Origin: a virus
Lineage: Duplodnaviria > Caudoviricetes
IMG/VR virus record: IMGVR_UViG_3300044846_003573
Direction: 5' to 3' (one strand)
DNA: 64,000 bases
Below the pieces are notes generated by a model. The model was not told the DNA's origin, searched no databases, and was given only the letters and a program-made list of their open reading frames with translations. The translations under genes were made by a program, and so were the position numbers. Shown here piece by piece: positions 2,220 to 52,880 of this stretch. The stretch's first letter is position 1. Every line of letters begins with the position of its first letter.

Positions 2220-2549
2220 ATGAAATATATAATCACAGAATCACAATTAGACAGAGTCATCTTTAAATATTTGGATAACCAGGACTTCATTCAAATTGAA
2301 AAAGACGGTTATATATATTTTTTAAATTCAGAAAATGATACGTATTCTGAAATTGTATTTGATATCACTAAACATTATTGTTTTATTTCACCTGATTTGA
2401 TTAGGGAGATATGTGATTTTTTCACTATTGATAAAACTGTATCAAAAGATAATATAGGTATTTGGGTTGAAAACACACTTGGTGTCGATATATCTGAAAT
2501 TAATCCTAATATTTTGATGAAAAAGTATCCTTTTAAATTTTCTGATTAA
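2220..2549 (+). CDS. MKYxITESQL-tag family protein (IFKYLD domain)
   Basis: paralog of the 47079, 48733, 49081 and 50916 genes. Confidence 0.8.
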   Translation: MKYIITESQLDRVIFKYLDNQDFIQIEKDGYIYFLNSENDTYSEIVFDITKHYCFISPDLIREICDFFTIDKTVSKDNIGIWVENTLGVDISEINPNILMKKYPFKFSD

Positions 2550-42368: not shown

Positions 42369-42989
42369 ATGAACCTACAGGAACACATAAGAAGAGTATT
42401 AAGGGAAGATAAAAAGAGTAAATTCATTATGGATATTGTTGATAAACATGGTGTTTATAAGACGGCAGAAATGATGGGTGTAACTATTACCTATTTATAC
42501 AAAATGTCTGATTTAAAAATTGATGAATTTGTTGCTAAAGAACTATTGGCTGAAAATATTGAAAATGGTAATTTACCTGCAAAATATAAAGGATTTGAAA
42601 TTGAAATAAGTAGTGATGATGTGTTTTATTGGGCAAGGCAGTTTAAATCGGGACACTATCCACCTAATGTATTAGAAAAAATATGGGTAATGGCAACACC
42701 TTTTTTCGCAACTGCTGATTATACACCCGTTGAACTTGATTGGTATGGATTAGAAGATGACTCAAAGAAACCTAATGTAGGAATATACGATACAAGTGGT
42801 GATGGTGATTATTTTGTGGAACTTACACATAATACACATAATGGTAATTATTTTTTTAATAGTGTTGATAATTTATTTGATTGGTATAATACGTTTTACT
42901 TACCAGAAGTGTATGAAATAATCTTGGATAGATTCATACCTGAAGTCCAAGAAGACACAGATGAAAGACTTAGAGATAAAAATACTTAA
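42369..42989 (+). CDS. MNLQE..LREE-tag family protein
   Basis: MNLQEHIRRVLRED. Confidence 0.75.
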   Translation: MNLQEHIRRVLREDKKSKFIMDIVDKHGVYKTAEMMGVTITYLYKMSDLKIDEFVAKELLAENIENGNLPAKYKGFEIEISSDDVFYWARQFKSGHYPPNVLEKIWVMATPFFATADYTPVELDWYGLEDDSKKPNVGIYDTSGDGDYFVELTHNTHNGNYFFNSVDNLFDWYNTFYLPEVYEIILDRFIPEVQEDTDERLRDKNT

Positions 42990-43026
42990 GATACGGACTT
43001 AGGACCGTTGTAGTTTAGGCTACATT

Positions 43027-43059
43027 AACCCCATTGAATTCGCTACTCAGTGGGGTTTT
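43027..43059. terminator. bidirectional terminator overlapping the end of the array-gene operon
   Basis: AACCCCATTGA..TCAGTGGGGTTTT. Confidence 0.7.
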
Positions 43060-43777
43060 CATTTAAGACATCTTCCACCACTGGTGAATTACATGTACGT
43101 GATGTGTGTGTTGTAGTTACCTTATGATTTAGGACTTCTTTCACCTCACTGAGAACAATAGTGGGTCTACAATAGGTTTTAGACACCTTATGATTTAATA
43201 CCTTCTCCACCATATTCGGAAACGGCGGTGTATTGAATGATATTGTAGACACCTTATGATTTAATGCCTTTTCCACCAAAACCACTTGTTCCGCATTCGT
43301 CGTTTGTGTTGTAGATACCTTATGATTTAATACATCTTCCACCAAGAAACCTTCGTTACCGATATCGTTTTGCGTTGTGAATACCTTATAATTTAATACC
43401 TCTTCCATCTTCACATTTGCCTTCATGCCCATATAAACAGTTGTAGATACCTTATGATTTAATACCTCTTCCACCTCATCATACTTTTTCTCCGCACACA
43501 ATTCAGTTGTGGGCACCTTATGATTTAATACCTCTTCCACCCAAGAAGCGAGTATTGGTTCAAAATCTTTGGGTTCCAATGAGAAAATGGTAAAAAAACT
43601 ATTAAAGAAATAATATCTCCACCACAAACGACCACTCTTTTCAAATTCAAAATACCAATGCTCCTTTTCTCGGTCAATTAACCATATAGAATCTTTATAT
43701 GGGATTATCTCCACATTACCTAATTCTTTGTATAGTTGTTTGAATACAACCTGTTTTAATCTATCAGTTACTTTCAT
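43043..43777 (-). CDS. array gene A: about 80-aa domain plus in-frame repeat-spacer array (7 spacers)
   Basis: VEEVLNHKVSTT + 10 variable aa, period 22 aa. Confidence 0.85.
   Translation of the reverse strand: MKVTDRLKQVVFKQLYKELGNVEIIPYKDSIWLIDREKEHWYFEFEKSGRLWWRYYFFNSFFTIFSLEPKDFEPILASWVEEVLNHKVPTTELCAEKKYDEVEEVLNHKVSTTVYMGMKANVKMEEVLNYKVFTTQNDIGNEGFLVEDVLNHKVSTTQTTNAEQVVLVEKALNHKVSTISFNTPPFPNMVEKVLNHKVSKTYCRPTIVLSEVKEVLNHKVTTTHTSRTCNSPVVEDVLNENPTE
43044..43541 (-). repeat. CRISPR-like 36-nt repeat / 30-nt spacer array A
   Basis: repeats start at 43506, 43440, 43374, 43308, 43242, 43176, 43110 (period 66) plus a truncated terminal copy. Confidence 0.9.
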
Positions 43778-44507
43778 TTTCTTTTTTGTTGTTTAATGCC
43801 TCATCTACCGATTCCGCTCTTCTTGAGATGAATTCTTCCGTTTTGGATACCTTACGATTCAATATATCTTCCACCAAAAAGTTTCCTTCACCTACGTCAC
43901 GGACTGTTTTGGATACCTTAATATCCAATACCTCTTCCATCTCAAGATTACCTCTTGGGTGGAGATACTCCGTTGTAGATACCTTACGATTCAATACCTG
44001 TTCCACCAAATAGTTGTTAGATAAGGTCATGTTTTTTGTTGTGGATACCTTACTATTCAATACCTCTTCCATCATATCATTCGAAGTGAAACTGAATTGC
44101 TGAGTTGTGGATACCTTACTATTCAATACCTCTTCCACCCCTTGCTTAAAACTTCTGAAACGGCTTGCAGTTGTGGATACCTTACTATTCAATACCTCTT
44201 CCACCCCACCATCCATGACATATTGCGTGCTATCTGTTGTGGATACCTTACTATTCAATACCTCTTCCACCCAAGATGAAATAATTGGTTCAAAATCTTT
44301 GGACTCCAAAGAGAAAAAAGAAAAGAAAGATTTGAAATAATCATATCTCCAATATAAACATCCACTTTCAGTTAGTTGGAAATACCAGTATTTTTCTTCT
44401 CTATCAATAAACCAATAACTGTATTGGGTAGGGATAATTTCCACATTACCTAATTCTTTGTATAGTTGTTTGAATATGAGTTGTTTTAATCTATCCGTTA
44501 CTTTCAT
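43764..44507 (-). CDS. array gene B (7 spacers)
   Basis: VEEVLNSKVSTT repeats; start overlaps stop of gene C. Confidence 0.85.
   Translation of the reverse strand: MKVTDRLKQLIFKQLYKELGNVEIIPTQYSYWFIDREEKYWYFQLTESGCLYWRYDYFKSFFSFFSLESKDFEPIISSWVEEVLNSKVSTTDSTQYVMDGGVEEVLNSKVSTTASRFRSFKQGVEEVLNSKVSTTQQFSFTSNDMMEEVLNSKVSTTKNMTLSNNYLVEQVLNRKVSTTEYLHPRGNLEMEEVLDIKVSKTVRDVGEGNFLVEDILNRKVSKTEEFISRRAESVDEALNNKKENESN
43774..44271 (-). repeat. CRISPR-like array B
   Basis: repeats at 44236, 44170, 44104, 44038, 43972, 43906, 43840; the first three are identical GTTGTGGATACCTTACTATTCAATACCTCTTCCACC. Confidence 0.9.
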
Positions 44508-45195
44508 TTTCTTTTTTATTGTTTAATGCCTTTTTCACCCAAACACTATTTAATACTTCTTCCACTGACCTTTCGGAAAACAAGGAATTATTTTTAGTTG
44601 TAGATACCCTACTATCTAATACTTTTTTTACCTTTCTTTTTTGGGCGGCGTCTACTTCAAAAGTTTCGGATACCTTATGATTTAAGACCTCTTCCACCCA
44701 CTTTGCTGTTACAGTAGTTTTCTCTTCAGTTGTGGATACCTTATGATTTAATACCTCTTCCACCAGAGGAAATTCGTCAATTACAAACATTTTTGTTGTG
44801 GATACCTTATGATTTAAGACCTCTTCCACCTGAAGTAAGCGGTGGGCCAATGTATTACCTGTTGTGGATACCTTATGATTTAATACCTCTTCCACCTTAT
44901 TGTCTCGGCGTACGGAAGGTATACGAGTTGTGGATACCTTATGATTTAAGACCTCTTCCACCCAAGAAGATATTATTGGTTCAAACTCACTCTGTTCCAA
45001 AGAGAAAATGCTGAAAAACGATGGGAAGAATGAGTATCTCCAAAATAAACATCCCTCTTTAGACAACTGAAAATACCAATAACAATTTTCCCTATCAATG
45101 AACCATACAGAGTCTTTATATGGGATTATCTCCGCATTACCTAACTCTTTGTATAGGTGTTTGAATATGAGTTGTTTTAGCTTATCTGTAACCAT
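44491..45195 (-). CDS. array gene C (6 spacers)
   Basis: ATG at 45195, 5 nt after TATCTTTG. Confidence 0.85.
   Translation of the reverse strand: MVTDKLKQLIFKHLYKELGNAEIIPYKDSVWFIDRENCYWYFQLSKEGCLFWRYSFFPSFFSIFSLEQSEFEPIISSWVEEVLNHKVSTTRIPSVRRDNKVEEVLNHKVSTTGNTLAHRLLQVEEVLNHKVSTTKMFVIDEFPLVEEVLNHKVSTTEEKTTVTAKWVEEVLNHKVSETFEVDAAQKRKVKKVLDSRVSTTKNNSLFSERSVEEVLNSVWVKKALNNKKENESNG
44531..44962 (-). repeat. CRISPR-like array C
   Basis: repeats at 44927, 44861, 44795, 44729, 44663, 44597. Confidence 0.9.
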
Positions 45196-45231
45196 AAGCA
45201 CAAAGATACAAAAAAACTTTGAAAATACAAA

Positions 45232-45570
45232 TTAATTTTCAGACGGTAATTTTAACGACCATTGGGAGCTCATTATCTTGTTGGACATTTGACCCTCCAA
45301 ATTCAGTTTTTTCTTAACCCATTGTCCAATAATTCTGGTAGATTGATAACTGTTAAGAGAAAAGAAGGAAGAAATTGCTTCAATTAAACCTTTATAGATA
45401 AAACACAATTCATTATTGGAATGATTACCACCATATTGAATTTGAGCAGACTCATCTTTAGGATATGAAAAATATATACTGGCACCAGTTTTAGTTATAT
45501 TGAAATCCTGACTATCAAGATACCTGAATATTACTTTATCTAATTGTGATTCTGTGATTAAATATTTCAT
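45232..45570 (-). CDS. MKYxITESQL-tag protein (IFRYLD domain)
   Basis: shared tag and domain. Confidence 0.8.
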   Translation of the reverse strand: MKYLITESQLDKVIFRYLDSQDFNITKTGASIYFSYPKDESAQIQYGGNHSNNELCFIYKGLIEAISSFFSLNSYQSTRIIGQWVKKKLNLEGQMSNKIMSSQWSLKLPSEN

Positions 45571-45938
45571 GATAATGTTATACTTCTAACTGATTTAACT
45601 TCATAGTCAGGAAAGAACTCATTAAATACATCTGACATAATGAATTTGCCGTGAACTAACCAAATAGGATGAGGAAACGCTGTACCATATACATCGTCAA
45701 AGTTCCTATTATAGTATAAATCACCACTTGGTTTATTATAAACCATTACGGCGTTTTGGTCACTATCAAATAAGTTAAGTCTTAAATCATTTTCAGAATG
45801 TGAATCAACCAAATTTTCAAAATAACGAATCATTTTAGGTTTGAGTCTATTGTATTGTTCCGTATATTCAGAATCTCTCCAAGTTCTTTCAAGTTCGGAT
45901 ATTAAATTATATTGTGACTCGGTAATAATATACTTCAT
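45567..45938 (-). CDS. MKYxITESQ-tag protein
   Basis: shared tag. Confidence 0.75.
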   Translation of the reverse strand: MKYIITESQYNLISELERTWRDSEYTEQYNRLKPKMIRYFENLVDSHSENDLRLNLFDSDQNAVMVYNKPSGDLYYNRNFDDVYGTAFPHPIWLVHGKFIMSDVFNEFFPDYEVKSVRSITLS

Positions 45939-45970
45939 GTAATAATAAATATAATTATATTTATAATATT

Positions 45971-46294
45971 ATGAACCTACAAGAGAATATAAAAAAAGTA
46001 TTAAGGGAAGAAACAGATTTTTCACCACAGTTCAAAAGAAGACTGAATAGATTTAAATCGTTTGTATGGGATAATAATGTAACTAATTATCCATGTGATT
46101 TTGAAAACTTTGAAGCGTTCATGCGTGGTATACAACATGAAATTATGGACATGATTACAGATGGTTCTGATACCGATGGCCCGTTGTCTGATTGGTTAAC
46201 ATATAAAGATGGTGTTACGTATGTAGAAAACTACATGAGGGATGACTTAGAAAAGTTTTATAATAAGCAATGTGTTGATGTCTTATACGTATAA
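45971..46294 (+). CDS. MNLQE..LREE-tag protein
   Basis: shared tag; TATTTAT upstream. Confidence 0.75.
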   Translation: MNLQENIKKVLREETDFSPQFKRRLNRFKSFVWDNNVTNYPCDFENFEAFMRGIQHEIMDMITDGSDTDGPLSDWLTYKDGVTYVENYMRDDLEKFYNKQCVDVLYV

Positions 46295-46639
46295 ATCAAG
46301 AAATTGTTCAATTGATATTCCAAGACCTGAGATACCAAAAAAGTTCATAAAGTCGGATTCATCCCAAGTATCACATCCGTTATTAATAATCCAAGATTGA
46401 CCTGTGGCATAATTCATCTGATAAAGTAAATCATAACTATTATCTAATTTTATCAGATACATCGGACCATAATTGTCCATATTAAATCTTCTTTGCATAC
46501 TATTATAACTAATACACTCATCAAAAATTATCATTACATCAGTTAAATCTGGGTCAAACTCAACACGACCTGTCAGGTCAATATTAAACTTGTCTTTAAT
46601 GAATGTTTTTAATTTAGATTCGGTGATAAGATATTTCAT
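46283..46639 (-). CDS. MKYxITES-tag protein
   Basis: shared tag. Confidence 0.75.
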   Translation of the reverse strand: MKYLITESKLKTFIKDKFNIDLTGRVEFDPDLTDVMIIFDECISYNSMQRRFNMDNYGPMYLIKLDNSYDLLYQMNYATGQSWIINNGCDTWDESDFMNFFGISGLGISIEQFLDLYV

Positions 46640-46655
46640 TATATATAAATATTAG

Positions 46656-47066
46656 TTAACAATTTCCTGTATTATAAACCTCAATATTGTGAACACTAAT
46701 TAGACCGCCACCGAACTGATATAAAGCCTTAGAAATAACATCTCTATACATACTTCTTGTACCTTCCTCATAGATATACCTTCCCACATTTGCAGGAGCT
46801 GGCTTAGGTATGTAGACGACCAAATTCATAGAGTCACGAGTGGGGATGATATTATAACTACAATACATCAAGACGGTTGAGATATCATTTTCAAGTATAG
46901 TTTTTGTTAGAAAGATAATATCTTCTCTTGTTCCTTTAAGACCAATCTCATCAATAATATCTTCAGGTTCCTTATCAGTCATTTTACACAGAGTACGCAT
47001 ACCAAATTTCTCTAATAAGGGTTTAAGAGTTTTGTTATATTGATTCTCAGTGATTAAGTATTTCAT
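46656..47066 (-). CDS. MKYxITEN-tag protein
   Basis: shared tag. Confidence 0.75.
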   Translation of the reverse strand: MKYLITENQYNKTLKPLLEKFGMRTLCKMTDKEPEDIIDEIGLKGTREDIIFLTKTILENDISTVLMYCSYNIIPTRDSMNLVVYIPKPAPANVGRYIYEEGTRSMYRDVISKALYQFGGGLISVHNIEVYNTGNC

Positions 47067-47078
47067 TATATGTAAATA

Positions 47079-47411
47079 TTAGTTATAGTGAACCTTCAAA
47101 ACTTCGGACTTGCTAAAGACAACCCATTGTGAGTAACTGACTTCCATTTGTAGGGTATTTCCAACCCAATTACCAATAATCTTTTTAGAGCGGACTTCAT
47201 CTAAAGAAAATAATACAGAGATGTCCTCAATTAAATTTAAGTTTATCTGACAAACACCATTTTTTTTATTATATCTAATTTGGGCATGTTCATCTTCTTC
47301 TGAATTAACAAAGAATATATTACTACTTGTTTCAATCTGAATAAAGTTCTGGCTATCCAAATATCTAAAGATTACTCTGTCTAATTGTGATTCGGTGATA
47401 AGGTATTTCAT
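47079..47411 (-). CDS. MKYxITESQL-tag protein (IFRYLD domain)
   Basis: shared tag and domain. Confidence 0.8.
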   Translation of the reverse strand: MKYLITESQLDRVIFRYLDSQNFIQIETSSNIFFVNSEEDEHAQIRYNKKNGVCQINLNLIEDISVLFSLDEVRSKKIIGNWVGNTLQMEVSYSQWVVFSKSEVLKVHYN

Positions 47412-47414
47412 ATA

Positions 47415-47735
47415 TTAATAATCAAAAAACATAACATCAACATCAAATGCTTTACTAAACCAATCAGAAATGAATTTACCTGATTGCTCTTTATCAAGTG
47501 GATACATGGATGAAAACTTATCTAAAAAAGATTCATCAATATATAATCTACCATCGCTGTGGTCAAACTCCATTAAAATAAAAAAATCAGGGCCTCTTTC
47601 AGGGCTATATATATTAATGAAATCACTATCTGATGTTCTATCATAATCTAATAATTTATTTAACTCAGATATCATTAAATTATTTATTACCGATTTGACT
47701 TTATCTAATTGTGATTCGGTGATGAGGTATTTCAT
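47415..47735 (-). CDS. MKYxITESQL-tag protein
   Basis: start moved to MKYLITE. Confidence 0.75.
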   Translation of the reverse strand: MKYLITESQLDKVKSVINNLMISELNKLLDYDRTSDSDFINIYSPERGPDFFILMEFDHSDGRLYIDESFLDKFSSMYPLDKEQSGKFISDWFSKAFDVDVMFFDY

Positions 47736-47768
47736 ATAAAATATAAATATAATCATATTTATAATAAT

Positions 47769-48098
47769 ATGAACTTAAAAGAATCTATAAAAAGAATACT
47801 GAGGGAAGAACTATCGGCGAGAATTAAAAGAAGACTTTCTAATGATGAAATGGAAAATGAGTTTCTTGAATCTTTTGAAGGCGCTTATCGTCTTACAAAA
47901 GACAGAAAGGTTTTAAGTTCACATTTTTTAGATGAGTTAGTCTACACAACAATAACCTTTATGATGGATGGGGTACATTGGAGATTTGTTAGTACATTAC
48001 CTGAAGATGAATTTTGGTATGATGATATACACCAAGGATTAGAAAATCATTATAGAAAAAGAATTACACGGATGTATAATGAAAGAAAAGGTTTTTAA
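47769..48098 (+). CDS. MNLxE..LREE-tag protein
   Basis: MNLKESIKRILREE. Confidence 0.75.
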   Translation: MNLKESIKRILREELSARIKRRLSNDEMENEFLESFEGAYRLTKDRKVLSSHFLDELVYTTITFMMDGVHWRFVSTLPEDEFWYDDIHQGLENHYRKRITRMYNERKGF

Positions 48099-48101
48099 AG
48101 A

Positions 48102-48380
48102 TTAATTAGAGTTTAAGAATTTGAGTAACGCTCTAATATATTCGGAACGTTTATTATAGAATTCAGTATCATCATCATATTGAAAAAACTCTTCACCTCT
48201 ATGTCTATCAACGAACTTTTCAATTAATTCATAAGCGTAGTCATCTCTGTCGGCGGAATCTTCAAAATCTTCTTCATCCATAATGTAGTTATAATCATCC
48301 CTAAGTGATTCCAATTCATCCATTGTAAACCTCCTAAGTAAAAATGCTTCTAACTGTGATTCTGTAATTAAGTATTTCAT
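48102..48380 (-). CDS. MKYxITESQL-tag protein
   Basis: shared tag; acidic body. Confidence 0.75.
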   Translation of the reverse strand: MKYLITESQLEAFLLRRFTMDELESLRDDYNYIMDEEDFEDSADRDDYAYELIEKFVDRHRGEEFFQYDDDTEFYNKRSEYIRALLKFLNSN

Positions 48381-48733
48381 TATTCGTTAACCATTAATCT
48401 GTAATCATATGGACCATCCCAAACCGTACTATCACTAATACCCAAAGTATTATTAACCCATGCTTTGATTATATCCAAACAATCCGATTTATCAATGGAG
48501 AAGAAGGTAGATAATTTATCAGTCAAATCAGAATTTACAAACACCCAATTCCTAACTTCACCAAAAGCGTTATTAGTATAAACACTAATCTGTGATTCCC
48601 TATCTGACTCACTGTTTAAGAAATATATATAATTGCTGAATTTCTTCTTGTTGTCATACATCACAAAGTCCTGAATATCAAGATACTTAAAGATTACTTT
48701 CTCTAATTTTGATTCGGTGATAAGGTATTTCAT
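48380..48733 (-). CDS. MKYxITES-tag protein (IFKYLD domain)
   Basis: shared tag and domain. Confidence 0.8.
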   Translation of the reverse strand: MKYLITESKLEKVIFKYLDIQDFVMYDNKKKFSNYIYFLNSESDRESQISVYTNNAFGEVRNWVFVNSDLTDKLSTFFSIDKSDCLDIIKAWVNNTLGISDSTVWDGPYDYRLMVNE

Positions 48734-49068
48734 TATATATAAATATTCTTAGGTATTTTCAACCAAGACTGGGTCATCAAACCAGCCTTGGTGGTATTTG
48801 TAACTTTCATTTGTAGGGTATTCCCAACCCACCTACCAATAGCCGATTCAGAATCAGATTTGTCCAAAGAAAATAACGATGAGATGTTCTTGATTAATTC
48901 GGGACTTATTACGCAACCAAAATTACCATTTTTGATTTGAGCATATTCATCATCTTCAGAGTTAACGAAGTATACTAAAAGACCTATTTTAATTTGAATA
49001 AAATCTTGATGGTTCAAGTAAATAAAGATTGCTCTATCTAATTGTGATTCGGTGATAAGGTATTTCAT
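48733..49068 (-). CDS. MKYxITESQL-tag protein (IFxYL domain)
   Basis: shared tag and domain. Confidence 0.8.
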   Translation of the reverse strand: MKYLITESQLDRAIFIYLNHQDFIQIKIGLLVYFVNSEDDEYAQIKNGNFGCVISPELIKNISSLFSLDKSDSESAIGRWVGNTLQMKVTNTTKAGLMTQSWLKIPKNIYI

Positions 49069-49080
49069 TATATATAAGTA

Positions 49081-49395
49081 TTAGTTAGGTGCTCTCAATC
49101 GTTCAGTGGGTAGGGTGTAAGAAATCTTTATTTGGAGAGTATCACTAACCCAACTACCAATAACTTCTTTTGAATCTAAATAATGTAAAGAAAATAAAGA
49201 AGAAATCTCATCAATTAATTTAGTGGATATATAACACCATTCATTAGTTATACTAGATTTAATTTGAGCGTATTCGTCACCTTCTGAATTAATAAAGTAT
49301 ACACCACCATTTTTCTCAATCTGAATAAAATCCTGATTATCCAAGTACTTAAAGATTACCTGATTTAATTTAGATTCTGTTATAAGGTATTTCAT
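49081..49395 (-). CDS. MKYxITES-tag protein (IFKYLD domain)
   Basis: start moved to MKYLITE. Confidence 0.8.
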   Translation of the reverse strand: MKYLITESKLNQVIFKYLDNQDFIQIEKNGGVYFINSEGDEYAQIKSSITNEWCYISTKLIDEISSLFSLHYLDSKEVIGSWVSDTLQIKISYTLPTERLRAPN

Positions 49396-49502
49396 TATAT
49401 ATAAATACAAAGATACACATAAAACTGAACAATACATATTGGGTTAATAATTTAATAAGAATATGATAATATGGTTTGAGGTTGTTTTTAATACTTATTA
49501 TT

Positions 49503-50210
49503 ATGGATTTATCAAAGTTTTTAACCATAGTAATCCCTTGTAAGAACGAGGGCAAGATAATAGAACAAACGTTGTCCTTATTAAACTTTCAAAAGGGAAT
49601 ACAAGATGTTAGAGTTATTGTTTGTGATTCATCGGATGATGATTATACATCCTATTCTTTGGAAAATAGGAGAACAGATTATTTTAATCTACAGATTATT
49701 TCAGGAGGACTTCCGTCTGTTGCAAGAAATAAGGGGGCTGAGAATGTGGAAACACCTTATGTTTTATTTTTGGATGCTGACATATTCTTATTGGATTTCA
49801 ACATATTAAACAATTGTATATGGGAGTTCTTATTACATAATACAGATTTGATTACATGTAAGGTAAGGTCAACGACAGGTGAGTATAATAGTATATTCAG
49901 ATTGTTTGATACAATACAAAAGGTATTTAAACCAATCACGCCATTTTGTCTTGGTGGGTTCATGATGGTAAAGAAAGAAGTATATGATACAATCGGTGGG
50001 TTTGATGAAAACGCAAGAGTTGCCGAGGATTATCTATTCTCCAAACAAGTTAAACCAAGCAAGTTTTATATCATGAATACGACGGTATTCACAAGTCCAA
50101 GAAGGTTCAAACAGAAAGGGGTGTGGTATATGTTAAAACTTATGGTTAGTTCATTCTTCAACAGAAACAATAAAAATCATTTTGAGGATGATAAAGGATA
50201 CTGGGAATGA
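49503..50210 (+). CDS. family 2 glycosyltransferase
   Basis: IVIPCKNE, VIVCDSSDD, ARNKG, LFLDAD, EDY. Confidence 0.9.
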   Translation: MDLSKFLTIVIPCKNEGKIIEQTLSLLNFQKGIQDVRVIVCDSSDDDYTSYSLENRRTDYFNLQIISGGLPSVARNKGAENVETPYVLFLDADIFLLDFNILNNCIWEFLLHNTDLITCKVRSTTGEYNSIFRLFDTIQKVFKPITPFCLGGFMMVKKEVYDTIGGFDENARVAEDYLFSKQVKPSKFYIMNTTVFTSPRRFKQKGVWYMLKLMVSSFFNRNNKNHFEDDKGYWE

Positions 50211-50923
50211 ATAATTGGAAAACAATAATCATGAGTGATTTACACTTAGGAGCAAGACAATCACAGACAGATAAGATAATAAGTTTCTTGGATAATAACA
50301 CAACAGAAAAACTAATACTGAACGGTGATATTATAGATGGTTGGGCTCTTAAAGGTAATGGTAAATGGACGAAGGATTGTACCAAGATATTCAGGAAGTT
50401 CATGAAGATGTCTGAGAAGAATACAAAGGTAATTTATATAAGAGGAAACCACGATGACTTCCTAAAAGATTTTATTCCATTTAAATTAAACAACATTAGG
50501 ATTGTAAGAAAGTATATACATAATGGTATTGACGGAAGAAAGTATTTTTGTTTTCACGGGGATGTATTGGATTTCGTTATAATGGAAGCGAGGTGGTTAG
50601 CAGTAATCGGTGGATGGTCATATGATATTGTCATTAAGTTTAATACTCTATATAACAAAATAAGAAAGTGGTTTAACTTACCATATCATTCATTGGCAAA
50701 CACAATAAAACAATCAGTAAAAGGGGCAATTAACTTTGTATCTGATTTTGAACAAAACGCGAAAGGTCTAACAAAACAAAAGGGATATGATGTTGCGGTG
50801 TGTGGACATATTCATCACCCGAAGATAGAGAATGACTATATGAACTCAGGAGACTTTTGTGAGAACTCTACATGTCTTGTAGAAGATTATAACGGGGAGT
50901 GGAAGATTATTACTATTAGTTAG
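50207..50923 (+). CDS. LpxH-like (UDP-2,3-diacylglucosamine diphosphatase family) metallophosphoesterase
   Basis: SDLHLG, NGDIIDGW, GNHDD, HGD, CGHIH, NSGD. Confidence 0.85.
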   Translation: MNNWKTIIMSDLHLGARQSQTDKIISFLDNNTTEKLILNGDIIDGWALKGNGKWTKDCTKIFRKFMKMSEKNTKVIYIRGNHDDFLKDFIPFKLNNIRIVRKYIHNGIDGRKYFCFHGDVLDFVIMEARWLAVIGGWSYDIVIKFNTLYNKIRKWFNLPYHSLANTIKQSVKGAINFVSDFEQNAKGLTKQKGYDVAVCGHIHHPKIENDYMNSGDFCENSTCLVEDYNGEWKIITIS

Positions 50924-51245
50924 GTATTTTAAACAAATTGTTCACATCGTGAAAGACCAAACGGGTATAAGTAACCCTCATTTGTAGAGTATTTTCAACC
51001 CATCTACCGATAACTTCCTTAGAATCATATATGTCCAAAGAAAAGAAAGAAGAAATTTCGTAAATTAATCCATGGCGTATATAACACCAACCATCGTTTC
51101 TATCATATCTGATTTGGGCATATTTATCATCTTCCGAATTAACAAAGTATATTGCGTTTCCTCTTTTAATCTGAATAAAGTTCTTAATATCCAAATATCT
51201 AAAGATTACTCTGTCTAATTGTGATTCTGTGATAAGATATTTCAT
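50916..51245 (-). CDS. MKYxITESQL-tag protein (IFRYLD domain)
   Basis: shared tag and domain. Confidence 0.8.
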   Translation of the reverse strand: MKYLITESQLDRVIFRYLDIKNFIQIKRGNAIYFVNSEDDKYAQIRYDRNDGWCYIRHGLIYEISSFFSLDIYDSKEVIGRWVENTLQMRVTYTRLVFHDVNNLFKIPN

Positions 51246-51275
51246 TACATATAAATATCATAAAGATAATAACTA

Positions 51276-51834
51276 TTATTGATTTAAGACCTGTTCCATC
51301 ACATAGTTCATAACAGACATTTCTACATCCGTTGTACATTCCTTATGATTTAATACCTCTTCCACCCCTCTTGTGAAGGGTCCAGAATATGCTTCCAATG
51401 TTGATACCTTATGATTTAATACCTCTTCTACCTCAATTTTTCCAACGTAATCAAGTGAATCGGTTGTAGATACCTTATGATTTAATACTTCTTCCACCAA
51501 TGAATGTTCGGGGTATTTGAGAATGGTAGTTGTAGACACCTTAACATTATGACTTAATACATCTTCCACCCGTGTTCGGATATGAGCATTGTGAGTATTA
51601 GTTGTGGATACCTTACTATTCAATACCTCTTCCACCTTCCAAGGAACACGAACTTTAACATCGCACGTTGTGGATACCTTATGATTTAATACATCTTCCA
51701 CCATCATGCTTTCAACACCGCTACCTGTCACGGTTGTAGATACCTTATGATTTAAGACCTCTTCCACCTTGTCCGTTGTAATTGGAAGTGGAATGAAGGT
51801 TGTGGATACCTTATGATTTAAGACCTCTTCCACC
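51276..51834 (-). repeat. CRISPR-like array D
   Basis: repeats at 51799, 51733, 51667, 51601, 51529 (6-nt insertion), 51463, 51397, 51331. Confidence 0.9.
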
Positions 51835-52070
51835 CAAGAAGATAGAACAGGACAAAAATCATCCAAACTCATGGAGAATATTTGAAAAAACGAATTAAAA
51901 AAATCGTATCTCCACCATAAAGTACCTGACTCATCAAGTTCAAAGTACCAGTATTTATTATCCCTATTAATAAACCATATAGACCCATTATAAGGAATAA
52001 TCTCACAATCACCCAACTCTTTATATAGGTGTTTAAAAATAAGTTGTTTTAATCTATCTGTAATAACCAT
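51276..52070 (-). CDS. array gene D (8 spacers)
   Basis: paralog of A-C; ATG 4 nt after TATATTTG. Confidence 0.85.
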   Translation of the reverse strand: MVITDRLKQLIFKHLYKELGDCEIIPYNGSIWFINRDNKYWYFELDESGTLWWRYDFFNSFFQIFSMSLDDFCPVLSSWVEEVLNHKVSTTFIPLPITTDKVEEVLNHKVSTTVTGSGVESMMVEDVLNHKVSTTCDVKVRVPWKVEEVLNSKVSTTNTHNAHIRTRVEDVLSHNVKVSTTTILKYPEHSLVEEVLNHKVSTTDSLDYVGKIEVEEVLNHKVSTLEAYSGPFTRGVEEVLNHKECTTDVEMSVMNYVMEQVLNQ

Positions 52071-52089
52071 AGAGCAAATATAGTAAGAA

Positions 52090-52880
52090 ATTATGAACTA
52101 AACAAACTCATTCCCCCATTCCACTATCGTGTCGTTCCATTCCCCTTCGGGTCATTACACTAATGGGTTCATTCATTTGTTTACTTCCTAATTTCATCAG
52201 GTCAAGAACTTCCTAATTTCCCCTATTGTATGAATCTATAATTAACGTACAACACTAATCTATAATAATCCCCCATAATGAAAGACACATACTATGAAGG
52301 GACATAACATATTACTGTTAATGGTATTGTACCCCATCGGGATAATGAAATACCCTAAAGGGTATATAAGATGATATTAGTATACCTGTTAGGGTATAAA
52401 ATATATGGTGGAATGTGAAAGGGACAATGTTCTTTATAGGGAACATAACCCTACAGGGTTATCCCTTATATAACACATTATGTCCCACTTTTTACCACCA
52501 CTATAATTGTCCATATCATGTGTCTATATGGTAAGGGGAAATCTTAAAAACCCCCTTGAAGACACTATAAAATACACTTTTCGTTGAAGGATTTAAACAA
52601 CTAAAGTCTGTCCACGCCACTTTATTGTTACATCCTATTTTTAGCTGGAAAATGTATATAGTTAAAAAAACCCTTCTCACACTATCAGGAGGACCACTTT
52701 TTTCACTTTTCATATAACCAAAAACCCCTCTCACATATACGTCAGTGGTAAAAAGTGGGAACATTTACCTATGGACAATATACATAATATACACTATATT
52801 TATAGTTGTTAATATGTCTAAAACCCGTCAAGGGGATTATCCCTTATCTGACGCTCCCCTGACATTTTGACAAAATCAAG
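52090..52880. other. long, largely non-coding palindrome-rich region
   Basis: three ACCCT/AGGGT-type palindromes (52350, 52381, 52445) and a 16-bp inverted repeat 52483-52498/52745-52760. Confidence 0.6.

What the first reader, a model, noticed from the sequence alone, without database searches (positions are those of the whole stretch)
47079..51245. Single-unit relatives: tagged paralogs carry repeat + 29-nt variable segment + frameshifted half-repeat
Seen: the MKYLITESQL/IFKYLD family ends in WVENTLQMRVTYT, in register with WVEEVLNHKVSTT. In the 48733 gene, a 36-nt block (48794-48829, GGTTGGGAATACCC..) is followed by 29 variable nt and then GGTTGAAAATACCTAA. This echoes the start of the block but is read in another frame as LKIP. 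The 50916 gene is the same (GGTTGAAAATACTCTA..29 nt..TGTTTAAAATACCTAA). The genes at 47079 and 2220 keep the 29-nt spacing, and 49081 has 14 nt. Inference: the same repeat-spacer-half-repeat architecture exists as a one-spacer version, linking the arrays to a larger family with a hypervariable C-terminal cassette.
Basis: partly seen in the sequence, partly recalled or inferred. Interest (0 to 1): 0.72.

Follow-up and report, generated by a model that had tools for sequence, protein, structure and literature searches.

The report
One-spacer CRISPR-like arrays in phage genes
Several small genes of a giant lake-water phage end in a miniature CRISPR-style unit (a 36-base repeat, a captured insert of 29 to 31 bases, then a partial repeat) that is read as protein, so each captured piece of foreign DNA rewrites the protein's tail; I found no paper that describes this.

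Summary
The MKYLITESQL genes share their domain with the array genes (hhalign 94%; same predicted order of helices and strands). At 48733 and 50916 a 36-nt repeat is followed by 29 nt and a partial repeat. Among relatives the next repeat lies 65, 66 or 67 nt on (96 of 97 cases). A 29-nt insert makes the repeat read +1 (LKIP, LRIPSN, LKIPYK-stop). A 30-nt insert reads in frame (VENT...). A 31-nt insert stops at GT-TGA. Three other lineages with different repeats show the matching shifted tails. Full repeats and older inserts often lie untranslated after the stop. Two natural alleles differ by exactly one 65-nt unit next to the domain, and that unit's 29-nt insert is an exact copy of a gene segment in an unrelated phage. 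Insert lengths match Bacteroidota type VI-B arrays, and the repeat shares their conserved core. Five related phage records, three of them complete, lack Cas1, Cas2 and RVT_1-type reverse transcriptase. In-frame stops are 20-fold depleted. Best reading: one-spacer versions of translated, Cas-less phage CRISPR-type arrays, probably written by host machinery. The function is open. Earlier agents of this scan had already noted the long arrays on this and other DNA.

The parts
50916..51245 (-). Single-unit gene (109 aa): MKYLITESQL domain, repeat, insert, partial repeat
   Evidence: ORF. AlphaFold pLDDT 91.6. Orthologues in L001-L003 and P0002-P0007.
50964..50999 (-). 36-nt repeat of gene 50916, read as VENTLQMRVTYT
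   Evidence: It is 20/36 identical to published Flavobacterium VI-B repeats (shuffle P about 2e-4).
50935..50963 (-). 29-nt insert (spacer) of gene 50916, read as RLVFHDVNN plus two bases
   Evidence: It is identical (0/29 differences) in orthologues whose domain DNA differs by 13-14%. It shows no variation in the contigs of 4 lake runs.
50919..50934 (-). Truncated terminal repeat of gene 50916, read +1 as (L)FKIPN, followed by the stop at 50916-50918
   Evidence: 12/16 to the start of its own repeat at offset 65.
48733..49068 (-). Single-unit gene (111 aa)
48793..48828 (-). 36-nt repeat of gene 48733 (VGNTLQMKVTNT)
   Evidence: It is 21-22/36 identical to Flavobacterium VI-B repeats.
48764..48792 (-). 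29-nt insert of gene 48733 (TKAGLMTQS..)
48748..48763 (-). Terminal partial repeat of gene 48733, read +1 as LKIPK; its first 11 bases (12 with the preceding G) are identical to the repeat start of gene 50916
47079..47411 (-). Single-unit gene with a fixed old insert: repeat 47130-47165, 29-nt insert 47101-47129, decayed terminal element 47085-47100 (LKVHY)
   Evidence: The tail QWVVFSKS.. is kept across orthologues and evolves at the domain's rate.
49081..49395 (-). Single-unit gene with a shortened insert: repeat 49114-49149, 14-nt insert 49100-49113, terminal element 49084-49099 (LRAPN)
   Evidence: the tail LPTERLRAPN is conserved in P0079, P0091, P0101, P0107 and P0116.
45232..45570 (-). 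Family member with a decayed tail (..SLKLPSEN); no recognisable repeat copy at the DNA level
48380..48733 (-). Family member with no recognisable unit (tail ..YRLMVNE)
2220..2549 (+). Distant copy of the family elsewhere in the window; the half repeat cannot be demonstrated
51276..52070 (-). Neighbouring eight-unit array gene (context): homologous N-domain plus 36+30-nt units
   Evidence: AlphaFold: domain pLDDT about 72, array part below 50. Unit-sized gains and losses appear in lake contigs.
43043..45201 (-). Three tandem array genes (context)

Best explanation
The MKYLITESQL genes are minimal, one-spacer versions of the phage's translated CRISPR-type arrays. A roughly 82-residue alpha/beta domain plays the part of the leader. 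Its last 12 codons are a 36-nt repeat. After the repeat comes a captured piece of foreign DNA of 29, 30 or 31 nt, and then the next repeat, which in the last unit is truncated after about 18 nt. The ribosome reads straight through. The newest insert is always translated in frame as about 10 residues. What follows depends on insert length: 29 nt gives LRIPSN, LKIPYK or LKIP then stop; 30 nt gives VENT... and the next unit; 31 nt gives an immediate stop at GT-TGA. Older units behind an out-of-frame insert become silent DNA. Shown: this anatomy, its presence in several lineages, the unit-sized difference next to the domain, one insert copied from another phage, the depletion of in-frame stops, and the absence of Cas1, Cas2 and RVT_1-type reverse transcriptase in related phage genomes. 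Inferred: new units are written at the domain-proximal repeat by the Cas1-Cas2 integrase of a Bacteroidota host acting in trans, as it does on Cas1-less type VI-B arrays. Also inferred: selection then keeps only inserts that let translation run on. I cannot yet decide whether the useful product is an RNA guide or decoy for host Cas proteins, with translation merely protecting or tolerating the array, or the variable peptide itself. I lean slightly towards the peptide being a passenger.
For: Anatomy: offsets of 65, 66 and 67 nt only. The three tail classes are seen in 161 unique tails: 108 read +1, 13 read in frame, 10 read +2. Other lineages covary: VEEHYK gives WRNITN, VEQHLE gives WNNI-stop, and the GAT and AAC variants are mirrored in the terminal copy. 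Full second repeats and silent older inserts lie after the stop in L026, L032, L078-L080, L166 and L168. Unit turnover: proteins with 100% identical domains carry unrelated inserts, and tail identity is bimodal. L078, L079 and L080 equal L075 and L076 plus one 65-nt unit next to the domain, with everything else identical. Foreign origin: that unit's 29-nt insert matches 29/29 inside an ORF of an unrelated phage contig of about 40% GC (L160: tail fibre, small terminase, sigma factor), where it is not flanked by repeats. Insert GC is 40-42% against 32% for the phage, with no codon-position pattern. CRISPR likeness: insert lengths of 21, 165 and 15 (29, 30 and 31 nt) do not differ from the 32, 197 and 12 in 25 Bacteroidota arrays (P = 0.40). 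The repeat is 22/36 identical to published F. columnare and F. branchiophilum VI-B repeats (PMC5395568 Table 4; shuffle P about 1e-5). The 20 shared positions used as a pattern hit only Bacteroidota CRISPR arrays in 185,579 species genomes. The duplicated block starts one base earlier relative to the codons in the long-array lineage than in the single-unit lineage, and in each it coincides with the block that aligns to the bacterial repeat. No Cas1, Cas2 or RVT_1 in 5 related phage records, 3 of them complete. In-trans filling of VI-B arrays by II-C Cas1-Cas2 is experimentally known (PMC8092290). Translation: 4 stops in 1320 in-frame insert codons against 6.2% expected, and 9% of inserts hold a stop in frame against 28-60% in the other five frames. 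Later units are 92% 30 nt long, while first units split 30/49/21% (P = 4e-8).
Against: No integrase has been tied to these units, and the host is unknown. Only 1 of 6 single-unit inserts tested had an outside match. The one-unit difference could be a loss rather than a gain; I call it a gain only because the older insert also stands first in several diverged genes (P0025, P0042, P0102). The repeat of the single-unit lineage does not fold like a VI-B repeat (-2.5 against -11 to -12 kcal/mol), and it matches those near-palindromic repeats about as well in reverse. So use as a Cas13b guide is doubtful, and the strand cannot be assigned for this lineage. Outside the 20 positions shared by construction, bacterial repeats match the phage repeat at chance level. 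First inserts of single-unit genes are far richer in 29 and 31 nt than bacterial arrays (P = 3e-7), which needs an extra selective explanation. Inserts lack the 3-base periodicity seen in bacterial spacers and in genome fragments (0.006 +/- 0.005 against 0.016).
Confidence: 0.6

Rival explanations
1. This is a protein-diversification system. The useful product is the variable 10-residue C-terminal peptide on a small, possibly injected, phage protein. DNA capture is the phage's way of generating new tails, and the CRISPR likeness reflects only the borrowed writing mechanism or shared ancestry.
For: In-frame stops are strongly depleted and frame is kept in the long arrays. The newest insert is always translated, whatever its length. 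Residue usage departs modestly from random: G, F, N, D and E are up; L, I and C are down (chi2 98, df 19). Some old tails are kept across diverged orthologues. AlphaFold places the start of the tail of gene 50916 as a strand with pLDDT 84-89.
Against: Residue composition is close to that of random DNA (most ratios 0.8-1.4). The array part is predicted to be disordered (pLDDT 25-50). Out-of-frame inserts that silence all older units are common and tolerated. A peptide read in an arbitrary frame from another phage's gene has no evident specificity.
Confidence: 0.25
2. This is only a tandem-repeat protein family whose cassettes are shuffled by homologous recombination within the repeats. No spacer-integrating enzyme is involved, and the CRISPR resemblance is convergent.
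For: The same insert occurs behind different domains and with different end motifs (P0044 and P0104; P0025, P0042 and P0102). The unit difference could arise by unequal crossing-over. Contigs of lake runs join paralogues and array units in alternative ways.
Against: Recombination cannot create the hundreds of unrelated inserts of 29-31 nt. It also cannot explain an exact 29-nt copy of another phage's gene, the length spectrum shared with bacterial arrays, unit boundaries that follow the bacterial repeat rather than the codons, or the foreign base composition.
Confidence: 0.08
3. These are accidental 'neo-CRISPR' scars. A gene end that happens to resemble the host repeat is an off-target for host Cas1-Cas2. 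The units have no function and are merely tolerated when they do not stop translation too early.
For: The phage has no cas genes. The peptides look random and the tails are predicted to be disordered. Out-of-frame inserts and silent units are frequent.
Against: The architecture is kept in at least four repeat lineages and in several paralogues per genome, across phages from many lakes. Arrays reach 8-9 units and remain open. A harmful off-target site would be expected to mutate away.
Confidence: 0.07

Closest known systems
Cas-less compact CRISPR arrays of huge phages (Al-Shayeb et al. 2020, PMC7162821)
   Same: Both are jumbo phages. Both lack Cas1, Cas2 and Cas4, and often lack an effector. 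Both have host-like repeats, compact arrays, and spacers that match other phages (here).
   Different: Here the array is the 3' part of a protein gene and is kept readable as protein. The leader is a coding domain. One-spacer forms end in a repeat that is read out of frame.
Type VI-B (Cas13b) arrays of Bacteroidota, filled in trans by type II-C Cas1-Cas2 (Hoikkala et al. 2021, PMC8092290; repeats in PMC5395568 Table 4)
   Same: Both have a 36-nt repeat and spacers of 29-31 nt in the same proportions. They share the conserved repeat core (GTTG, CCCT, TGAAGG, ACA.C). Neither has Cas1 next to the array. New units appear at the leader-like end, and the terminal repeat is degenerate.
   Different: The array sits in a phage, inside an ORF. 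The repeat hairpin is weak (long-array lineage) or lost (single-unit lineage). Inserts are 40-42% GC against 34% in bacterial spacers. No Cas13b is linked to it.
Viral solitary repeat units and mini-arrays: RNA anti-CRISPRs (Racr, PMC10651486) and phage crRNA-like regulators (bioRxiv 10.1101/2024.10.29.618823)
   Same: In both, a phage carries one or two host-like repeats, with at most one spacer and a degenerate second repeat (abstracts only).
   Different: Those are non-coding RNAs with fixed or regulatory spacers. Here the unit is translated and the spacer is hypervariable and captured from other DNA.
Diversity-generating retroelements (from my own knowledge)
   Same: Both give targeted hypervariation at the C-terminus of phage proteins.
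   Different: Here there is no RVT_1-type reverse transcriptase, no template/variable repeat pair, and no adenine-specific changes. Whole 29-31-nt blocks are replaced.
Off-target 'neo-CRISPR' formation by Cas1-Cas2 in E. coli (Nivala et al. 2018, recalled from memory, not read)
   Same: A spacer is integrated and a repeat-like sequence is duplicated at a non-CRISPR site.
   Different: That was a laboratory observation in a bacterial chromosome. Here the result is a conserved, multi-lineage natural gene architecture in phages.

Membership tests
CRISPR array | Direct repeats of constant length separated by unique spacers of near-constant length | tested here: met
   36-nt repeat. Inserts of 29, 30 and 31 nt (21, 165 and 15 among 201 sense inserts). 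All inserts are unrelated to each other.
CRISPR array | Spacers are copies of foreign DNA (protospacers) | tested here: inconclusive
   One of 6 single-unit inserts has a 29/29 match in an unrelated phage contig, L160. The other five matched only their own arrays. There were no matches in 1.16 Mb of related loci, in 5 phage records, in 802 Bacteroidota genomes or in GenBank phages.
CRISPR array | Polarised growth at the leader end with duplication of the first repeat; degenerate terminal repeat | tested here: inconclusive
   One allele pair differs by one unit next to the domain, with a perfectly duplicated repeat. Terminal repeats are truncated after about 18 nt. Gain against loss is inferred only by parsimony.
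CRISPR array | Adjacent cas genes, or cas genes in the same genome | tested here: not met
   No Cas1 (PF01867) or Cas2 (PF09827) in 5 related phage records, 3 of them complete. The Cas9_REC search had no working control.
CRISPR array | Non-coding, AT-rich leader and a non-coding array | tested here: not met
   The 'leader' is a conserved protein domain, and the array is open in frame.
Type VI-B (Cas13b) direct repeat | 36-nt repeat with conserved GTTG...CAAC ends and a stable two-tier hairpin | tested here: not met
   Sequence identity is 22-24/36, P about 1e-5. Folding energy is -2.5 kcal/mol (single-unit lineage) and -6.5 (array lineage), against -10.9 and -12.2 for the bacterial repeats.
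Type VI-B (Cas13b) direct repeat | Processing into crRNA by Cas13b | not testable with these tools
   No RNA runs hold this DNA.
MKYLITESQL / array N-domain protein family (no Pfam entry) | Shared domain of about 85 residues ending in W-V-E-x-x-L...V-x-x-T | tested here: met
   hhalign 94%, E 1e-7. Both AlphaFold models give the same order of secondary-structure elements. There is no Pfam match and no PDB fold match.
Diversity-generating retroelement | Reverse transcriptase plus a template/variable repeat pair | tested here: not met
   No RVT_1 in 5 phage records. Inserts are replaced as whole blocks.

The most novel reading that the evidence does not exclude
A CRISPR-type spacer integrase, most likely the host's, is used by giant phages as a writing device. 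It inserts 29-31-nt pieces of foreign DNA at the 3' end of small protein genes, and the resulting random 10-residue tails (always including the newest one) are the selected product. That would be a repertoire of variable phage proteins generated by DNA capture.
Probability: 0.25. Interest if true: 0.95.

Novelty: new variant of a known kind. Interest (0 to 1): 0.8.

Why it matters
Phage-borne arrays without cas genes are known. An array fused in frame to a protein gene has not been described in the papers I searched, nor has one in which insert length (29, 30 or 31 nt) decides how the protein ends and which older units fall silent. The one-spacer genes are the simplest form of this system. They are numerous: 2826 relatives were found in the protein search. 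They also give natural before-and-after alleles. Together these make three questions directly testable: who writes the units, where the inserts come from, and whether RNA or peptide is the product. If host Cas1-Cas2 writes into phage genomes, CRISPR adaptation would also be a source of heritable variation for the virus.

Tried and rejected
- Pfam gave nothing for the small genes.
- Rfam gave no CRISPR-repeat or other family in 42900-52200.
- Foldseek against the PDB gave no fold match for the domain.
- The window region has no match in GenBank phages, even at E 10.
- Exact-match scans for five inserts found only their own arrays or nothing.
- None of the 137 inserts matched elsewhere in 1.16 Mb of related loci. 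None of the 288 entries of the two-strand insert list matched the L160 contig.
- Spacers of 25 bacterial VI-B arrays do not match the phage loci.
- The window's arrays, searched against about 800 Flavobacteriales and Chitinophagales genomes, gave only short noise. Only two candidates per genome were scored, so sensitivity was limited.
- The claim in earlier notes that inserts copy host chromosome could therefore not be reproduced here.
- Contigs of 4 lake runs show no variation in the 29-nt segments of the single-unit genes. No raw reads were on hand.
- The Cas9_REC search had no positive control.
- A syn/nonsyn comparison in the 47079 clade was uninformative, because the domain itself evolves almost neutrally.
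- A general test for nucleotide-level conservation of old inserts was negative: 8% against 11.5% for the domain, with a biased selection of pairs.
- The host of L160 could not be inferred.
- I rejected a programmed frameshift, because the shifted reading follows simply from insert length.
- I rejected the idea that the tail motif echoes the next gene's start codon region, because the motif covaries with the repeat in other lineages.

Full report
What is there. The window is part of an uncultured lake-water jumbo phage. This rests on earlier notes of this scan and on 24 lake or freshwater runs that hold the stretch. Between 45.2 and 51.3 kb on the minus strand lie six small paralogues that start with MKYLITESQ. 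A seventh lies at 2220 on the plus strand. Four longer genes (43043-45201 and 51276-52070) have a related N-terminal domain followed by seven or eight units of 36 constant plus 30 variable nucleotides.

Check of the observation.
- In gene 48733 the last 12 domain codons form a 36-nt block at 48793-48828. After it come 29 unrelated nucleotides, then a copy of the block's first 12-16 nt, read one base out of register as LKIPK.
- Gene 50916 has the same layout (repeat 50964-50999, insert 50935-50963, partial repeat 50919-50934, read as FKIPN).
- Gene 47079 keeps the 29-nt spacing, but its end element has decayed.
- Gene 49081 has a 14-nt insert.
- For gene 2220 I could not show a half repeat at the DNA level.
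- Genes 45232 and 48380 have no recognisable unit.

Homology of the two groups. A profile of the seven paralogues aligns end to end with a profile of the four array N-domains (hhalign probability 94%, E 1e-7). This puts WVENTLQMRVTYT on WVEEVLNHKVSTT. AlphaFold models give the same order of elements for gene 50916 (pLDDT 91.6) and for the domain of array gene 51276 (pLDDT about 72): helix, four strands, helix, helix. The array part of the longer protein is predicted to be disordered. Neither Pfam nor the PDB holds a relative.

The wider family settles what the tail motif is. A profile search found 2826 relatives, and 73 related viral loci were fetched. The commonest form is WVENTLQM(K/R)VTNT, then ten hypervariable residues, then LRIPSN, LRIPSK or LKIPYK and a stop. 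LKIPYK-stop and LRIPSK-stop are exactly the +1 reading of the repeat, whose shifted frame ends at a TGA. Other members end in frame with VENT, VENTP or VENTL. Members of 105 residues end with G, S or C, because a 31-nt insert puts GT-TGA in frame. Proteins of 131-132 residues carry two units. At the DNA level the next repeat starts 65, 66 or 67 nt after the first in 96 of 97 cases.

Three further lineages use different repeats and show the matching shifted tails. VEEHYK gives WRNITN. VEQHLE gives WNNI-stop. Variants such as GTTGAT or GTTGAAC at the repeat start recur in the terminal copy. So the C-terminal motif is not an independent peptide motif. It is a DNA copy of the repeat, read in whichever frame the insert length dictates.

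The array is a DNA entity that extends beyond the open reading frame. In several relatives the second repeat is a full, identical 36-nt copy. It is followed by another insert and a truncated terminal repeat, all after the stop codon (L026, L032, L166, L168). Terminal repeats keep roughly their first 18 nt and then run into the conserved spacer before the next gene. The duplicated block begins at the base before the Val codon in the long-array lineage. There the preceding wobble G is fixed and the last Thr base varies. In the single-unit lineage the block begins at the Val codon itself. In each case it is the block that aligns with positions 1-36 of the bacterial repeat.

Turnover. Tail identity is bimodal between proteins: the tails are either nearly identical or unrelated. 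Three proteins with 100% identical domains carry three unrelated inserts. Their DNA shows that L078, L079 and L080 equal L075 and L076 plus one 65-nt unit (repeat plus 29-nt insert) directly after the domain. All other positions over several hundred bases are identical. Because the extra insert is 29 nt long, the protein now ends in LRIPSK and the former insert lies silent downstream. This could formally be a loss. I read it as a gain because the older insert stands first in several more diverged genes.

Origin of inserts. The extra 29-nt insert has an exact 29/29 match in an unrelated viral contig, L160. That contig has about 40% GC and genes for a tail fibre, a small terminase and a sigma factor. 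The match lies inside the 3' end of an ORF, with no repeats beside it. Five other inserts gave only self matches. Inserts as a class have 40-42% GC against 32% for the phage loci, and GC is flat over the three codon positions. In the domain it is 0.35, 0.25 and 0.26. They lack the three-base periodicity that bacterial spacers, bacterial genome fragments and phage fragments show at the same sample size, though the difference is only about two standard deviations. No insert matched elsewhere in related phage genomes. I could not reproduce the earlier notes' claim of host-chromosome sources.

Likeness to bacterial arrays. The repeat of the single-unit lineage is 22/36 identical to the published type VI-B repeats of Flavobacterium columnare and F. 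branchiophilum (PMC5395568 Table 4; shuffle P about 1e-5). A pattern made of the 20 shared positions hit 25 stretches among 185,579 species genomes. All hits were CRISPR arrays of Bacteroidota with periods of 65-67 nt. The remaining positions match only at chance level. Because these repeats are near-palindromes, the reverse strand matches about as well for this lineage. Insert lengths over all phage units (21, 165 and 15) do not differ from those of the bacterial arrays (32, 197 and 12; P = 0.40). The phage repeats do not keep the stable hairpin of the bacterial repeat. Five related phage records, three of them complete, lack Cas1, Cas2 and RVT_1-type reverse transcriptase. In F. columnare the Cas1-less VI-B array is filled in trans by the II-C adaptation genes (PMC8092290). 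Huge phages with Cas-less, host-like arrays that target other phages are also known (PMC7162821).

Translation matters. In-frame stops are about 20-fold depleted (4 in 1320 codons, against 6.2% expected). The other five frames hold stops in 28-60% of inserts. Later units of arrays are 92% 30 nt long. First units split 30/49/21% over 29, 30 and 31 nt (P = 4e-8). Residue usage is close to that of random DNA, with fewer L, I and C and more G, F, N, D and E.

Two readings fit these facts. In the first, the peptide is the product. In the second, ribosome transit is what is needed, for example to keep an untranslated array from premature transcription termination. Bacteria solve that problem with boxA antitermination (Stringer et al. 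2020, as cited in PMC7862264). I lean slightly to the second reading but cannot decide.

Population data. Only assembled contigs of the lake runs were on hand. In four runs the single-unit genes are invariant, including their 29-nt segments. The neighbouring array gene shows unit-sized gains, losses and replacements.

Novelty. Five full-text searches found phage mini-arrays, solitary repeats and Cas-less phage arrays, but nothing on arrays read as protein or on repeats read in alternative frames. Earlier agents of this scan described the long arrays on this and other genomes. This report adds the one-spacer forms, the rule that insert length sets the reading frame, the silent units, the allele pair, and a phage protospacer.

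Noticed in passing
window 50935-50963; L170, L171: The 29-nt insert of gene 50916 is identical (0/29 differences) in two orthologues whose domain DNA differs by 13-14% and whose flanking repeat and terminal element also differ. This hints at nucleotide-level constraint on this one insert. It is not a general feature of old inserts.
   Followed up: partly
window 47085-47129 and orthologues in L008, L017, L025, L030: In the 47079 clade the insert-derived tail (QWVVFSKS..) is fixed and evolves at the same rate as the domain. It looks like a captured insert that became a permanent part of the protein.
   Followed up: partly
Family-wide: First inserts of single-unit genes are much richer in 29 nt (and 31 nt) than bacterial arrays or the phage's own long arrays, and 108 of 161 unique tails are of the +1 type. 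This is either selection for out-of-frame endings or a search bias. It is unexplained.
   Followed up: partly
window 47000-51245 (table 5): Low-depth contigs in lake runs join paralogues (for example 49088 to 50970 and 49089 to 51037). These would delete the glycosyltransferase and phosphoesterase genes between them. They may be recombinant genomes or assembly artefacts at the repeated gene starts.
   Followed up: no
window 49476-50923 (+): A family-2 glycosyltransferase and a calcineurin-like phosphoesterase sit on the opposite strand in the middle of the paralogue cluster. The phosphoesterase stop overlaps the stop of gene 50916. A phosphoesterase gene also follows a single-unit gene on the opposite strand in L166.
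   Followed up: no
P0001 (204 aa): This is a natural fusion of two tandem family members. The tail of the first runs in frame into the start of the second (..LKLSKLQIDKIVFKFLD..).
   Followed up: no
L166 379-407 (the second, untranslated insert; positions derived from the layout): The silent older insert contains an internal 11-nt direct duplication (CATTACGAGCA twice). This is unusual for a captured spacer.
   Followed up: no
window, many genes (for example 45232-49437, 56238, 59307, 59634): Many unrelated small genes begin with MKY(L/I)ITE. If so, the variable-tail proteins might be packaged and injected.
   Followed up: no
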